Shown in pieces: positions 1 to 3,000 of a stretch of 42,271 nt of DNA. This DNA comes from Sandaracinaceae bacterium. Its GTDB lineage: Bacteria; Myxococcota_A; Polyangia; Polyangiales; JADJQN01. Position numbers: made by a program. Every line of letters begins with the position of its first letter. Position 1 is the first letter of the stretch. Where the stretch lies: positions 1 through 42,271 of the forward strand of contig CANKOL010000004.1 of the NCBI GenBank assembly GCA_947483975.1. The letters are read 5' to 3'.

Positions 1-3000
1 CCGTCCGCTACCCGGAGGCTGCGTAATGCTGTGTCCCGAGAGACCATCGGTAAGCCGTGTGCGGGAAATCCGCACGCACGGTTTGAAAGGGGGTCCTGCC
101 CTTTCACTGATGAACTTCATCAAATGAAAGAGCAGGATCTACCAATGAAACTCGACCGCAGGGTGTCTCTCGCGTTCGCCTCTGGGTTCTTGGCGAGCGC
201 GCTCGCGCTCAGCGCGTGTGGGGATGACGCGCCCGCGTCCGTCGACGCCGGAGCGCCGGATCTCGGGCCGGTGTGCACCTACGACGGGGGCGACGAGGCG
301 CCGCTCGCGGAGCCCGAGCGACACACCGCGCGGTGGGCGTTTCGCCCGTGGATCTCCAAGGACATCTCGGACCGCGCCGACACGCTCGCGTTCGTCAGCG
401 GGTTTCGAGAGCGCGACATTCCCGTCGGCACCGTGGTGCTCGATAGCCCCTGGGAGACTCACTACAACACCTTCGTCGTGAGCCCGTCGCGGTATGGCGA
501 CTTTCCTTCGCTGGTGTCGACGCTGCACGCCGAGGACGTGCACGTCGTGCTCTGGATCACGCCGCTCGTGAACCGCCGCAGTCAGGACTACGAGACGGGC
601 GGCGACACCTACGTCGGCGCGTCGCCGAACCTCGCCGAGGGGCTCGCGTGCGGGTTCTTCGTGGAGAATGGGCTGTCGTTCCCGTGGTGGAAGGGGAACG
701 GCTCGGCGGTGGACTTCTTCGACGCGCGCGCGCGCGGCTGGTGGCACGCGCAGCAGAACGCGCTGCTCGAGGCGGGGCTCGATGGCTGGAAGCTCGACTT
801 CGGCGACGAGTACGTGACGCGCGACCCGCTGACGACGGACGCGGGCGAGGTCACGCATCAGGCGTATTCAGAGGCGTATTACCGGGACTTTCTCGCGTAT
901 GGGCGGCAGCAGCGTGGGCGTGACTTCGTGACGATGGTGCGGCCCTACGACCGCTCGTATGGCTTCGAGGGGCGCTCTTATGCGCGCCCCGAGCACGCGC
1001 CGATCGGCTGGGTAGGGGACAACCGCCGCGACTGGATCGGGCTCGAGGACGCGCTCGATCACATCTTCCGCTCGGCGCTGGCGGGCTACGTCGTGCTCGG
1101 CTCGGACCTCGGCGGCTACCTCGATCGCGACGACCTCGAGCCGGCGATCACGGTGCCCTTCGACAGCGAGACCTTCGCGCGCTGGACGGGCGTGAGCGCG
1201 CTGATGCCGTTCATGGAGCTGCACGGCCGCGACAACCTCGCGCCGTGGACCGTGCCCGACCACGCGGACGAGACGGTCGTGCTCTATCGCTATTGGGCGA
1301 AGCTCCACGACGCGATGGTGCCGTTCAACTACTCGCTCGCGGAGGAGGCGTACGCGGGCGCGGCGGGCATCCTCCGCCCGGTGCAGGCGGACGCGGCGAG
1401 CTGGGCGGGCGACTGGCGCTACCTGCTCGGGGACGCCTTCCTCGTCGCGCCCGTGGTCGCGGCGGTCACCTCGCGTCAGGTCGCGCTGCCGAGCGGCGCG
1501 CGCTGGTACGACTGGTGGGCGCCGAGCGCCGCGCCCCTCGACGGCGGCACGACGGTGACCGCGGACGTCAGCGTGCGCGGACGCATCCCGCTCTACGTGC
1601 GCGAGGGCGCCATCGTGCCGCTCGACGTCGTGGACGACGCGAACGGCCTCGGCACGGCGGCGAGCGCCGGCGCGCTCACGCTGCTCGTCTGGCCCGCGAG
1701 CGCGGAGACGGGCTTCGTGCTGCACGAGGTCGACGACACGACGACGCAGCTTCACGCGCAGCAGACGCCGACGGGCCCGCGCGTCACGCTCTCGCGCACG
1801 GTGCGCCCGACGCTCTTGCGCGTGCGTAGCGACGTGGCGCCGCGGGCGGTGCGTGACGACGCGATGGCGCTGACGGTCTTCGGGGACCGGGTCGCGTTCG
1901 ACGCGGGGACGAGCGGCGTCTTCTACGAGGCGGCGACGTCGTCGCTGTGGATCAAGCTCGAGGCGCGCGCCGCGGCGCGCACGGTCACCGTCGAGGTGCC
2001 GTAGGCTCGGCAGGCGAGGCGTGTCCGAGCGCGGCTCGAAGGAGCGAACGCCAACGCTCAGCGCGGGCCGCTCGCCTCGTCGGGCCCGGAGTCTTCGCTC
2101 GCGACCGAGTGCGGATAGCTGCGGCGCGGGTTGCAGACGACGCGCGCGGGCTTGTTGCTCGCGCTCGTCCAGGTCGCGTACGCCATCGGCGCGACGTGGC
2201 CGACTCGGTACTGAATCCCGGGGCGGAAGAGCACCGCGGGGTCGCAGTTTCTGCCGCCGTACATGAACTCGAAGTGCACATGCGGCCCGCGGCTGATGCC
2301 GGTCGAGCCAAGCTCTGCGAGCACGGCGCCTGCGGGGACGCGCTCGCCTGCGACGACGTAGAGCGCGCTGTTGTGCGCGTACATCGTGACCCAGCCGCCG
2401 GGGTGCACGAGCAGGACGATGTTGCCGTAGCCGGGGATCTCGTTGCCGCTGTACGCGACGATGCCGGGCGCCGCGGCGCGGACGTTCCAGCCGATGTCGC
2501 CCGCGATGTCGACGGCTTGGTGATAGCCGCCCTCGCCGGAGCCGAAGCCGCGCACGAAGCGACCGGCGGACACGGGCCAGCGGAGCGTCCCCGGCATCGT
2601 GCTCGTGTCGCGGCTGGTGCTCGAGGCGCGCACCCACTCGGGGAGGACGCGCCCCGCGAGGAGCTGCCCCGCGACCGTGCGCGTGCCGAGGTGCAGCCGG
2701 CGCGCGAGCGCCTGCGCGCGAAGCTCGGACGGCGTCGTGCGGCGCGCCATTCGCCCGCTGCGATCCGCCTGCACGCCGGGCACGAAGAGCCGCGTGCCCT
2801 CCCGCAGCGAGGAGACCTCCGCCACCGAGAGCGAGTTCGCCGCCATGATCGCCGCGACGCTCGAGCGAAATGAGGAGGCGATGTCCCAGATGGTCTGGCC
2901 GCGCTCGACCGTGTGCGTCACGCCCTCGCGCGGCGGGGGAGGGCGCTCGTCGACGTCGGCCTGGTGCACGCCCGGGACGATGATCACGCGCCCGGCGCGC

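What a model noticed while it worked through the whole genome (the two positions that open the first line are those of the whole stretch)
1..147. Group II intron family inserted right after start codons of leaderless genes, carrying its own SD-ATG
A multi-copy group II intron sits exactly between the start codon and codon 2 of host genes. Six contig ends stop in its 5' end: unique DNA reads ...TANNNT-N7-8-ATG/GTG | GTGCGTCGTGACG at C121:13025-13170 and at the right ends of C160, C178 and C21 and the left ends of C17 and C44. Four contigs (C4, C94, C103, C229) start in its 3' end at bases 1-147, which ends ...GAAAGAGCAGGATCTACCAATG; that ATG is the called start of a complete gene (g00105, g01846, g01967, g03186). 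So the intron ends in a Shine-Dalgarno (AGGA) plus ATG in frame with the host ORF. The host start codon is in frame with an ORF that runs through the ribozyme into the reverse transcriptase. The intron therefore appears to bor [...]
Evidence so far: JUNCTIONS HERE. Contig-end clustering: 6 ends share 143-167 nt starting GTGCG (junctions C121:13027, C160:10694, C178:10035, C21:28443, C17:139 minus, C44:139 minus) and 4 contig starts share 148 nt. Rfam: RF02003 group-II D1-D4 at the 5' ends (41 bits, cut by the contig end); RF00029 domain V/VI at 50-107 of the 3' ends. Genes start at base 145 in all 4 contigs, three with lipoprotein signal peptides from residue 1. From the host start codon the frame is open to the contig end at all 6 junctions (MVRRDESNPK..., call 165). 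PUBLIC CONTIGS on C4:1-1200: depth of bases 1-160 is 4-20 times that of the gene behind it in 3 DNA runs; contigs leave the terminal ATG into other ORFs (g00991, g01967 an [...]
(Added by a program. Inside this text positions count along the whole contig: contig position 1 is position 1 of the stretch shown here. "Call 12" and the like, gene names such as g00115 and contig names such as C1 are that model's own, and its searches are not shown. The text may have been shortened before it was handed on; [...] marks where a part breaks off. The agent that wrote the report below was given it as the finding of a first reader that could run no searches.)

Follow-up and report, generated by a model that had tools for sequence, protein, structure and literature searches.

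The report
Group II intron that targets start codons
Bases 1-147 are the tail of a mobile group II intron whose relatives, in many bacterial phyla, always sit just after the start codon of genes with a promoter box right in front, and the intron ends in its own ATG, so the interrupted gene keeps a start codon.

Summary
Window 1-147 is the 3' end of a multi-copy group II intron: the end of the RT ORF, domain V, a long domain VI, and a terminal AUG. The same 147 nt start four contigs, and six contig ends carry the matching 5' end after TANNNT-N7-8-ATG/GTG.

Relatives show this is a large cross-phylum lineage.
- 60 of 61 insertion sites have TANNNT 6-8 nt before an ATG/GTG. Only 1.3% of control [AG]TG sites do.
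- A domain I loop CAU(N) (EBS1) covaries with the start codon and the base before it. An EBS3 base covaries with the first base of codon 2. This fixes the splice sites exactly between codon 1 and codon 2.
- The intron ends in ATG or GTG at 62 of 64 junctions, in frame with the host ORF.
- In 36 of 64 lineages the host start codon opens a stop-free frame through D1-D3 into the RT. That stretch shows no amino-acid constraint, only phase and stop avoidance.

AGGA lies in its 3' strand, and an SD-like core occurs at only 22 of 64 junctions.

Leaderless transcription, translation and splicing are inferred, not measured. I found no description of this in searchable literature.

The parts
1..26 (+). 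Last codons and stop codon of the intron-encoded RT/maturase ORF (frame 3: VRYPEAA, TAA at 24-26)
   Evidence: Sequence, read by eye. It matches the C-termini ...YPEAA* of full-length relatives L047 and L048. Base 1 is an assembly break, not a biological boundary: public contigs continue at least 1 kb upstream (records 1 and 23).
55..81 (+). Domain V, the catalytic hairpin, with a 5-nt loop GAAAU
   Evidence: RF00029 at 50-107, 42.5 bits. 10 pairs are 99.8% paired over 50 family sequences, 4 of them with double changes.
89..143 (+). Domain VI: a long helix. It has basal GG(89-90)/CC(142-143), bulged branch-point candidate A141, helix 91-99/132-140, an inner helix and an apical hairpin at 108-122.
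   Evidence: RNAfold gives -50.6 kcal/mol, z -5.9, with 0 of 200 shuffles as good. Covariation: 11 pairs, 7 with changes on both sides, 88.7% paired against 30-47% when slid.
134..137 (+). It lies in the 3' strand of domain VI, 7 nt before the ATG.
   Evidence: It pairs with UCCU at 98-101. An SD-like core occurs at 22 of 64 family junctions. Function as an SD was not shown.
145..147 (+). Terminal AUG: the last three nucleotides of the intron and the only start codon left for the host ORF in unspliced RNA
   Evidence: Identical in 4 contigs of G000. The family ends in ATG 58 times and GTG 4 times at 64 junctions. EBS3 covaries with the base after it in 31 of 37 loci, plus 3 G-U pairs. The branch A sits 6 nt before the end, as in the outgroup.
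148..148 (+). First base of the 3' exon (IBS3 = A)
   Evidence: It is A in 4 of 4 G000 junctions and 8 of 8 G045 junctions.
145..2004 (+). Host gene: GH31-family glycosidase, 619 aa, with a lipoprotein-like N-terminus (..LALSAC) read by eye
   Evidence: ORF. Pfam PF01055 at 157.5 bits and PF21365 at 57.2 bits.

Best explanation
WHAT IT IS. Window 1-147 is the 3' end of one copy of a recently active group II intron. G000 holds at least six copies. The intron encodes an RT/maturase without an endonuclease domain. It belongs to a large lineage found in at least eight phyla that homes to one kind of site: the phosphodiester bond between the initiation codon and codon 2 of genes whose start codon lies 6-8 nt downstream of a -10 promoter hexamer. 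That is the architecture of leaderless genes.

SHOWN BY SEQUENCE COMPARISON.
- A domain I loop, UCAUNUC (EBS1 = CAU-N), pairs with N-AUG or N-GUG of the 5' exon and covaries with it.
- A single EBS3 base pairs with the first base of codon 2.
- The intron runs from GUGCG to ...CUACCAAUG. Its last three nucleotides form a start codon in frame with the host ORF.
- In the sub-lineage that includes this copy, the host's own start codon opens a stop-free, in-phase frame of about 195 codons across domains I-III into the RT ORF.

INFERRED.
- Transcription starts at the A of the host AUG, so the RNA 5' exon is only AUG.
- Ribosomes that load on this 5'-terminal AUG read through D1-D3 and make the RT. 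They would also keep the long intron RNA translated.
- When the ribozyme folds, EBS1 sequesters the AUG. Splicing then restores the leaderless mRNA.
- In unspliced or half-spliced RNA the terminal AUG lets the host protein be made with an unchanged N-terminus. In this lineage the AGGA in the domain VI strand may help once that helix is melted.
- How the -10 box is sensed at integration is unknown.
For: Identity and copies.
- RF00029 hits the window at 42.5 bits. RF02003 hits the 5' ends.
- Identical ends occur on 4 + 6 contigs.
- Public DNA contigs show 4-20x depth over 1-160. They carry the same end joined to the C103 and C39 genes, with at least 1 kb of upstream intron.

Full-length relatives.
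- Copies are 2017-2068 nt. The IEP matches TIGR04416 at 423 bits, plus RVT_1 and GIIM, with no HNH.
- 594 of 601 candidate stretches in genome contigs encode relatives.

Target site.
- TANNNT lies at spacer 6-8 in 60 of 61 sites (spacer 6: 40, 7: 15, 8: 5), against 1.3% of control [AG]TG sites.
- The inner bases of the hexamer follow the host: TATAAT, TAGAAT and TACAAT in lower-GC hosts; TACGCT and TAGGCT in high-GC hosts.
- Eight near-identical copies in one complete genome have eight different flanks. The box is therefore not part of the element.

Base pairing.
- EBS1 is paired at position -4 in 44 of 48 loci; the shuffle mean is 25.7 and 0 of 2000 shuffles reach 44. Position -3 is Watson-Crick in 45 and G-U in 3. 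All three CAC variants sit at GTG sites.
- EBS3 is complementary in 31 of 37 loci, plus 3 G-U pairs; the next-best column reaches 50%.

3' end.
- ATG occurs 58 times and GTG 4 times at 64 junctions. The downstream frame is open for at least 60 codons in 52 of 54, against 14 and 32 in the other two frames.
- Host genes are unrelated: GH31, a Phd-like antitoxin, MoaC, ArsC and 4HBT.

Leaderless class in G000.
- TANNNT counts peak at 109-180 at spacers 6-10 before candidate starts, against 31-72 elsewhere. A control hexamer shows no peak.
- 115 of 143 TANNNT-N6-8-C[AG]TGA sites open ORFs of at least 100 codons.

Long ORF.
- 36 of 64 lineages are in frame with 0 stops. The other frames carry 3-12 stops.
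- Frames 1 and 2 have 38 and 42 distinct stop columns, 25 and 30 of them in 3 or fewer sequences. Frame 0 has none in the 34 open sequences.
- The in-phase D1-D3 stretches come in 18 different lengths (540-648 nt) across the 34 open sequences.
- 621 public protein clusters carry the extension fused to the RT.

Orphan 3' fragments in C39 and C15 still supply the ATG of their genes.
Against: - No transcription start, splicing or translation data exist. The only RNA-library contig (1827 nt, depth 108) shows intron joined to a 3' exon, meaning unspliced RNA or DNA carry-over.
- A 3-nt 5' exon gives only 3 base pairs with EBS1. That makes exon ligation doubtful.
- D1-D3 codons show no amino-acid constraint. 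Differences by codon position are .289/.313/.329 with 17% synonymous, against .277/.229/.466 with 45% synonymous in the RT. Constraint begins near residue 194. Solved IEPs align only from residue 201-230.
- 28 of 64 lineages lack the open frame, mostly the actinobacterial group.
- AGGA is base-paired in domain VI. 42 of 64 junctions lack an SD-like core, and the C15 orphan has lost it.
- No -35 TTG signal: 4 of 63 sites.
- Only 3 of 9 uninterrupted orthologues in related genomes have TANNNT 6-8 nt before the start.
- This copy's own EBS1, EBS3 and RT are unseen, because the body is not in the bin.
- Some members begin UUGCG or UCGCG instead of GUGCG.
Confidence: 0.75

Rival explanations
1. The TANNNT hexamer is a DNA recognition motif of the intron RNP. 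This would parallel how the terminator hairpin serves IIC introns. On this view the hexamer is not a working promoter, the host genes are not leaderless, and the RNA 5' exon is long.
For: - Only 3 of 9 uninterrupted orthologues keep the box.
- There is no -35 signal: 4 of 63 sites.
- Variable spacing of 6-8 nt is tolerated.
- No TSS data exist.
Against: - Only T, A and the last T are fixed, as in sigma-70 -10 recognition. The inner bases track the host's composition.
- G000 has a genome-wide TANNNT peak at the same spacing before ORF starts, and 115 of 143 such sites open long ORFs.
- The uninterrupted same-genus orthologue of the C94 gene has TACGCT-N7-GTG.
Confidence: 0.12
2. The open frame from the host start codon through D1-D3 is not translated. 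The RT starts at the conserved internal Met (about residue 197 of the long ORF). The upstream frame stays open for another reason or by descent.
For: - There is no amino-acid constraint before about residue 194.
- Solved IEPs align only from residue 201-230.
- The Met in ..REGM.. is conserved in most of the 34 open sequences, by eye.
- 28 of 64 lineages do without the open frame.
- Ribosomes inside D1-D3 should hinder ribozyme folding. PMC3073962, section 8 passage, says most group I introns place an in-frame stop just after the junction.
Against: - 34 diverse sequences have zero stops in frame 0. Frames 1 and 2 have 38 and 42 stop columns, most in 3 or fewer sequences.
- Phase is kept through many indels, with 18 different in-phase lengths.
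- Composition alone predicts about 4.8 stops per 200 codons, so the chance of zero is 0.008.
- A ribosome starting at the host AUG must enter the intron anyway.
Confidence: 0.3
3. The last 40 nt are an extra 3' module after domain VI, like the domain VII of Bacillus cereus B.c.I4-type introns, and it carries a dedicated SD and ATG.
For: The RF00029 alignment ends at 107, leaving 40 nt unexplained. AGGA lies 7 nt before the ATG.
Against: - These 40 nt pair back to 89-110 as one long domain VI, with a bulged A 6 nt before the end.
- The helix covaries in 50 sequences.
- The branch-to-end distance equals that of the outgroup.
- The SD-like core is absent at 42 of 64 junctions.
Confidence: 0.04
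4. It is an assembly or binning artefact: the shared ends are chimeric joins, not real insertions.
For: All ten junctions sit at contig ends and share roughly one assembler word length.
Against: - Repeats are expected to break assemblies exactly in this way.
- Independent public contigs from three other studies cross the 3' junction into the same genes.
- A complete 10.3-Mb genome has eight internal full-length copies with the same anatomy.
Confidence: 0.02

Closest known systems
Class C (IIC) bacterial group II introns, which insert after intrinsic terminators or into attC sites
   Same: - The RT lacks an endonuclease domain.
- The ribozyme is small and EBS1-IBS1 is very short (4 bp here).
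- A single EBS3-IBS3 pair is used.
- Targets are a structural or functional DNA feature, not a long unique sequence, so many unrelated loci are hit.
- The best solved-structure matches are IIC RTs: 7uim at 187.8 bits and 6ar1 at 183.8 bits.
- The nearest outgroup in my sample (Paenibacillus and relatives, 48-55% RT identity) sits after a hairpin plus T-run in 3 of 3 loci with flank.
   Different: - There is no hairpin in the 5' exon: mean z -0.13 over 61 sites.
- The target is a -10 box plus a start codon.
- The intron ends in AUG instead of AY.
- A long ORF begins at the exon's start codon.
- The margin over a CL-class RT is small (6me0, 168.5 bits). Class membership is not settled.
[quoted passage not shown] 2007, as summarised in the PMC12584367 introduction)
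   Same: These are group II introns tied to start or stop codons. The insertion leaves the host reading frame with a usable signal: in groEL, UAA becomes UAG. How they find these codons is stated to be unknown (PMC12584367, passages read).
   Different: - Those introns have a CL1 RT with an endonuclease domain and a 300-700-nt insertion at the base of domain I. They occur in proteobacteria and in specific housekeeping genes.
- Here no HNH is present, D1-D3 totals only 540-648 nt, and hosts and genes are diverse.
- The 2007 paper itself was not held. I could not check whether it mentions this lineage.
B.c.I4-type class B introns with a domain VII 3' extension
   Same: Both have extra sequence between the Rfam-recognised domain VI core and the 3' splice site.
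   Different: Here the extra sequence is part of domain VI, with the branch A at the usual distance from the end. PMC4424553 section 15 describes domain VII as shifting splicing 50-70 nt past a canonical AY end.
Yeast mitochondrial introns aI1 and aI2, whose RT ORF is in frame with the upstream exon (recalled, not from a call)
   Same: The intron protein is read from the host gene's start codon through the intron's 5' part.
   Different: These are organellar IIA introns deep inside cox1, and the fusion is processed. Here the exon contributes only the start codon, and the leader crosses D1-D3 without amino-acid constraint.
Group IIC-attC introns with outward promoters (Pout), PMC3001079
   Same: The intron carries a signal that keeps the downstream host gene expressed despite the insertion (abstract and passages read).
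   Different: That signal is a promoter on the other strand, inside D1 or D2. Here it is a start codon at the intron's very end.

Membership tests
Group II intron (ribozyme plus RT retroelement) | 5' GUGYG and domains I-IV | tested here: met
   GTGCG is present at six contig ends. RF02003 scores 40 bits on the truncated own end, below its gathering score of 49, and 57-107 bits on full-length relatives.
Group II intron (ribozyme plus RT retroelement) | Domain V, and domain VI with a bulged adenosine near the 3' end | tested here: met
   RF00029 at 42.5 bits, at or above its gathering score of 40. The DV and DVI helices covary, and the invariant bulged A lies 6 nt before the end.
Group II intron (ribozyme plus RT retroelement) | Intron-encoded RT/maturase in domain IV | tested here: inconclusive
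   Relatives score TIGR04416 at 423 bits (cut-off 300), plus RVT_1 and GIIM. For this copy only the last 8 codons are in the window, and the body is absent from the bin.
Group II intron (ribozyme plus RT retroelement) | EBS-IBS pairing that defines the splice and insertion site | tested here: met
   EBS1 and EBS3 covary with the exons in relatives. The own EBS is unseen. The own exons (C at -4 in 6 of 6, A at +1 in 4 of 4) fit CAUG and U.
Group II intron (ribozyme plus RT retroelement) | Self-splicing and retromobility | not testable with these tools
   Mobility is inferred from at least six identical copies here and eight in one complete genome, at different loci.
Class C (IIC) introns | Insertion after a terminator-like hairpin or attC | tested here: not met
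   No fold signal in -48..-1 of 61 sites: mean z -0.13. The outgroup does show a hairpin plus T-run.
Class C (IIC) introns | Short IBS1 and no IBS2 | tested here: inconclusive
   Pairing is supported for -1 to -4 only. Eight identical copies have differing -5..-16. IBS2 was not searched for systematically.
Class C (IIC) introns | RT of phylogenetic class C | tested here: inconclusive
   The best PDB hits are IIC RTs, but by about 15-20 bits only. No reference tree was built. The 5-nt DV loop is listed as a IIE/IIF trait in the PMC3753933 introduction.
IIB1 start/stop-codon clade (Michel 2007) | CL1 RT with an endonuclease domain | tested here: not met
   Pfam finds RVT_1 and GIIM only in the 640-aa ORF.
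IIB1 start/stop-codon clade (Michel 2007) | A 300-700-nt insertion at the base of domain I | tested here: not met
   The whole stretch from the 5' end to the RT match is 540-648 nt.
Leaderless genes (host sites) | -10 hexamer 6-8 nt upstream of the start codon, with no SD | tested here: met
   60 of 61 sites. There is a genome-wide peak in G000. Absence of an SD was not scored.
Leaderless genes (host sites) | Transcript 5' end at the A or G of the start codon | not testable with these tools
   Only contigs of one RNA library were available. They cannot show starts.

The most novel reading that the evidence does not exclude
This lineage has a fourth kind of group II intron target specificity: it integrates into active leaderless promoters. 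The RNP would reverse-splice into the single-stranded non-template strand of an RNA polymerase open or initially transcribing complex. It would read the start codon with a CAU-containing loop, much as initiator tRNA does.

The intron would then live entirely on borrowed signals:
- the host promoter starts the intron RNA 3 nt before its first base;
- the host start codon drives translation of the RT through the ribozyme;
- the intron repays the gene with its own terminal AUG.

On this reading exon ligation becomes dispensable.
Probability: 0.2. Interest if true: 0.92.

Novelty: new variant of a known kind. Interest (0 to 1): 0.8.

Why it matters
A 2015 review lists three target specificities for bacterial group II introns: homing sites, terminators and attC (PMC4424553, section 21). 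A 2025 paper calls the way a different clade finds start and stop codons unknown (PMC12584367).

Here a widespread lineage gives a readable rule:
- a 4-bp EBS1 that reads the start codon;
- one EBS3 base;
- an obligatory -10 box at 6-8 nt.

There are dozens of natural target sites per genome. That makes the question of how an intron senses a promoter or start site directly testable.

The lineage also shows an intron that preserves host expression without needing to splice. Its RT frame is kept open from the exon's start codon across a ribozyme, an unusual overlap of translation and RNA catalysis.

Practical consequences:
- Gene callers already report hundreds of 630-690-aa "RT" proteins whose first ~195 residues are translated ribozyme.
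- Host genes behind these introns are annotated from the intron's ATG.
- The sites are a marker for leaderless genes in uncultured phyla.

Tried and rejected
- Own full-length intron. Exact-pattern scans with its 5' end found nothing in genome contigs or metagenome contigs. tblastn of a relative's ORF on the bin found only two unrelated RTs.
- Empty site of the C4 gene. An exact scan with bases 148-174 found nothing. In laid public contigs, one DNA contig (X9 record 25, 7 differences in 81 nt) aligns only from base 145 onward and may be an uninterrupted allele.
- Pairing 5' and 3' junction contigs by synteny with the same-genus genome failed. The C160 flank loses synteny before the junction. 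The neighbour of the C94 orthologue maps inside C226, not to a junction contig.
- Empty-site check by orthologues. Only 3 of 9 have TANNNT 6-8 nt before the start: yes for C94/G001, MoaC/G059 and ArsC/G037; no or unclear for the other six. The G007 orthologue of the C4 gene was not inspected.
- A 5'-exon hairpin as in IIC introns: none. A -35 TTG: 4 of 63.
- Domain VII reading of the tail: rejected.
- The -10 box as part of the mobile element: rejected, since eight identical copies have eight different flanks.
- RNA evidence. One metatranscriptome run, held as contigs, has the intron's 3' end joined to another ORF. This says nothing on splicing or starts.
- Literature. Nine full-text searches found no description of introns behind -10 boxes or leaderless starts, of a terminal AUG, or of an exon-started RT frame in bacteria. 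Simon et al. 2008 and Michel et al. 2007 were not held and may bear on novelty.
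Full report
**What is at 1-147**

The window is contig C4 of a 524-contig bin. Rfam places group II domain V/VI at 50-107 at 42.5 bits, with a gathering score of 40. Frame 3 of bases 3-26 reads VRYPEAA followed by a stop. This is the C-terminus seen in full-length relatives. The stretch ends ...GAGCAGGATCTACCAATG, and the ATG at 145-147 opens a 619-aa ORF with GH31 domains.

The same 147 nt start C94, C103 and C229 at 100% identity. Each is followed from base 145 by a different ORF of 322, 95 and 230 aa. These are preceded by ATG five times and GTG once, with a TANNNT hexamer 7-8 nt further up. RF02003 (D1-D4) matches that end at 40 bits, truncated by the contig end. The frame from the host ATG is open for all 49 visible codons.

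The intron body is not in the bin. Public contigs of other runs extend at least 1 kb upstream of base 1 at 4-20 times the depth of the gene behind it. They also join the same end to the C103 and C39 genes. Base 1 is therefore an assembly break in a repeat.

C39:19942-20088(-) is 94% identical to bases 1-147, and C15:27896-28032(-) is 80% identical. Both are internal. Against full-length relatives they cover only the last ~135-155 nt of the intron, and no RT lies upstream. Each is fused by its terminal ATG to a lipoprotein-like ORF of 189 or 138 aa. These 5'-truncated fossils show genes that now depend on the intron-derived ATG. The C15 copy has ACGC where AGGA stood.

**A large lineage with the same anatomy**

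The 5' end finds relatives in 9 of 61 genomes of the same order, G000 included. Fourteen full-length copies of 2017-2068 nt were extracted, together with one 329-nt ORF-less derivative. Eight of the full-length copies are near-identical and lie in one complete 10.3-Mb genome, G045. One further locus, L046, gave no 5' boundary.

The ORF of the closest relative carrying the same domain VI (L044) has RVT_1 and GIIM, matches TIGR04416 at 423 bits, and has no HNH. Using its RT part, 594 of 601 candidate stretches in the species-representative genomes encode relatives. The best 80 loci come from Myxococcota, Pseudomonadota, Planctomycetota, Acidobacteriota, Actinomycetota, Chloroflexota, Gemmatimonadota, Spirochaetota and others.

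I could define the 5' junction in 64 loci (51, 13 more) and the 3' junction at 64 distinct places.

**Where it inserts**

Of 61 junctions with at least 48 nt of flank, 60 have TANNNT 6-8 nt before the ATG or GTG that abuts the intron (spacer 6: 40, 7: 15, 8: 5). The exception has GACAAT. Among all 9,951 [AG]TG in the same loci, 131 (1.3%) do.

The three fixed letters are those of a sigma-70 -10 element. The inner letters follow the host: TATAAT, TAGAAT and TACAAT in lower-GC hosts, and TACGCT and TAGGCT in high-GC hosts. There is no -35 TTG (4 of 63). There is also no 5'-exon hairpin (mean z -0.13).

The eight identical G045 copies have eight different hexamers and flanks, so the box belongs to the target and not to the element. 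Host genes are unrelated: GH31, a Phd-like antitoxin, MoaC, ArsC-family, a thioesterase and several lipoproteins. The MoaC domain begins at residue 16, so the ATG sits at a natural N-terminus.

In G000 itself, TANNNT is enriched about four-fold at spacers 6-10 before candidate starts of long ORFs. Counts are 163, 180, 141, 150 and 109, against 31-72 at other spacings, and a control hexamer shows no peak. Of 24,361 C[AG]TGA sites only 143 have the box, and 115 of these open ORFs of at least 100 codons. The bin therefore has a class of leaderless-type genes, and the intron sits only there.

**Exact splice sites**

A domain I stem-loop, GCCGC-UCAUNUC-ACGGC, is complementary to the last four exon bases. 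Position -4 is paired in 44 of 48 loci (36 Watson-Crick, 8 G-U), while the shuffle mean is 25.7 and 0 of 2000 shuffles reach 44. Position -3 is Watson-Crick in 45 and G-U in 3. The three loops with CAC instead of CAU all face GTG start codons.

One column in a GGGGUA-N-GGGG motif is complementary to the first base after the terminal ATG in 31 of 37 loci, plus 3 G-U pairs. The next-best column reaches 50%.

These two covariations place the 5' splice site after the G of the host start codon and the 3' splice site after the G of the terminal AUG. This resolves the TG ambiguity that DNA comparison alone leaves. The six G000 exons (C at -4) and four 3' exons (A at +1) fit an EBS1 of CAUG and an EBS3 of U, but these are unseen. 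I found no support for pairing beyond -4.

**The 3' end**

The 40 nt after the Rfam match are not an appendix. Bases 89-143 fold into one long domain VI. It has basal GG/CC, bulged A141, a 9-bp helix in which AGGAUCU pairs with GGGUCCU, an inner helix and an apical hairpin. The predicted energy is -50.6 kcal/mol, z -5.9.

Over 50 family sequences the 11 basal pairs are 88.7% paired, against 30-47% when slid, and 7 have changes on both sides. The bulged A lies 6 nt before the intron's end. That is the same distance as in the outgroup, which ends A-CUC-UAG or A-CUC-UAC.

What differs is the end itself: AAUG instead of UAY. The last codon is ATG at 58 junctions and GTG at 4 of 64. One is ACG and one was mis-delimited by my script. 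The frame behind it is open for at least 60 codons in 52 of 54 cases, against 14 and 32 for the other two frames. An SD-like core (AGGA, GGAG or GAGG at -16 to -5) is present at 22 of 64 junctions. It is part of the covarying helix and is absent in the actinobacterial forms (CCCCUGACU). In this copy AGGA is well spaced but base-paired, so its role as an SD is possible but unproven.

**The long ORF**

In 36 of 64 lineages the host start codon is in phase with the RT and the 540-648 nt between them contain no stop. The other two frames hold 3-12 stops. In the 34 such sequences aligned, frames 1 and 2 show 38 and 42 different stop positions, of which 25 and 30 occur in three or fewer sequences. 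Frame 0 shows none. Composition predicts 4.8 stops per 200 codons. Phase survives many indels, and the in-phase lengths take 18 different values.

Yet substitutions are spread evenly over codon positions (.289/.313/.329, 17% synonymous). In the RT the figures are .277/.229/.466 with 45% synonymous. The third-position excess begins at about residue 194, next to a conserved Met. Solved intron RTs align from residue 201-230.

Selection therefore keeps the frame open and in phase but does not care what it encodes. The functional RT starts near the internal Met.

The 28 lineages without the open frame are mostly the actinobacterial, Bryobacterales and Planctomycetota group, plus scattered frameshifted copies. 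Gene callers have reported the long form often: 621 protein clusters carry the extension fused to the RT.

**How it most likely works**

Shown:
- the anatomy and the covariations above;
- multi-copy spread to unrelated gene starts.

Inferred:
- The host promoter starts the transcript at the start codon, so the intron RNA has a 3-nt 5' exon.
- Ribosomes that bind the 5'-terminal AUG run through D1-D3 into the RT frame. This supplies the RT in cis and keeps a 2-kb insert translated. It may protect the downstream gene from polarity, but that is speculation.
- Folding of domain I pairs EBS1 with the AUG and would end that round of translation.
- Splicing would restore AUG + codon 2.
- Three base pairs hold the 5' exon poorly, so ligation may be inefficient. 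The terminal AUG then lets the host protein be made, unchanged, from unspliced or half-spliced RNA.
- The orphan fragments in C39 and C15 fit this last point.

How integration senses the -10 box is open. Base pairing cannot explain a motif at variable spacing with free inner bases. The candidates are recognition by the RT and entry into the melted non-template strand of a polymerase open complex.

**Evidence against, and gaps**

- No TSS, splicing or translation data exist. The one RNA-library contig (1827 nt, depth 108) is intron joined to a 3' exon and could be DNA carry-over.
- Only 3 of 9 uninterrupted orthologues in related genomes have the box at 6-8 nt. The three are the same-genus orthologue of the C94 gene, MoaC in G059 and the ArsC-like gene in G037. 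This may reflect fast promoter turnover.
- Some members start UUGCG or UCGCG.
- I could not pair junction contigs or find an empty allele.

**Comparison with what is known**

The nearest relatives in my sample sit after a hairpin plus T-run, as IIC introns do. The best solved-structure matches are IIC RTs, though by a small margin. The short EBS1 is also IIC-like. The 5-nt domain V loop is listed as a IIE/IIF trait (PMC3753933, introduction passage). The class is not settled.

Zimmerly and Semper (PMC4424553, sections 8, 15 and 21 read) list three bacterial target specificities and place domain VII only in class B. Gomes et al. (PMC12584367, abstract and passages read) describe a IIB1/CL1 clade at start and stop codons of housekeeping genes. 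That clade has an endonuclease and a 300-700-nt domain I insertion, and its mechanism is unknown. The lineage here meets neither defining feature.

An RT frame continuous with the upstream exon is known to me from yeast mitochondrial aI1 and aI2 (recalled). Nine full-text searches found no description of the present arrangement. Two key subscription papers were not held.

**Verdict**

- It needs correction on the "tail" and the SD.
- I rate this a new variant of a known kind with high interest, pending wet-lab proof of the transcription start, of translation, and of how the promoter is sensed.

Noticed in passing
G000 C39:19942-20088 (-) and C15:27896-28032 (-): Two 5'-truncated orphan copies (~135-155 nt: end of RT ORF, DV, DVI, AUG) of the same intron family, 94% and 80% identical to window 1-147. 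Each supplies the ATG of a lipoprotein-like gene. Both are cut near the RT stop codon.
   Followed up: partly
L026 (G015:C1191), oriented 1500-1828: A 329-nt ORF-less derivative that keeps the first ~140 nt and the last ~180 nt of the intron. It sits at TAGGGT-N6-GTG and ends in ...CTACCAATG plus an ORF. It looks like a miniature non-autonomous form.
   Followed up: no
L070, L072-L074, L087, L092, L101, L105, L109, L112, L116: Members from Actinomycetota and neighbouring groups begin UUGCG or UCGCG instead of GUGCG, right after the start codon. They keep the CAUG EBS1 loop and the -10 box. The near-universal first G of group II introns is replaced, or the 5' splice site is shifted by one base.
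   Followed up: no
window 6588 and 16201 (+): Two unoccupied sites in this window match the G000 target pattern TANNNT-N6-8-C[AG]TGA and open ORFs of 492 and 524 codons. They are candidate leaderless genes and potential intron targets.
   Followed up: no
G000 C37:17137-18144 (-) and C238:3051-3707 (-): Two other reverse-transcriptase genes in the bin, 35% and 29% identical to the relative's RT. They are not this intron.
   Followed up: no
L050 (G032:C481): A copy with a frameshift near the RT C-terminus. As a result, the frame from the host GTG runs without a stop through DV and DVI and through the terminal ATG into the host ORF.
   Followed up: no
L126 428-942 (Paenibacillus polymyxa record): A sub-threshold cspA thermoregulator match (57.9 bits, gathering score 78) lies directly upstream of the terminator-inserted outgroup intron.
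   Followed up: no
window 1-2004, frame 1: The frame of the host ORF is open from base 1 across DV and DVI (667 aa, open at the 5' end), although the RT frame stops at 24-26. At 48 codons this may be chance.
   Followed up: no
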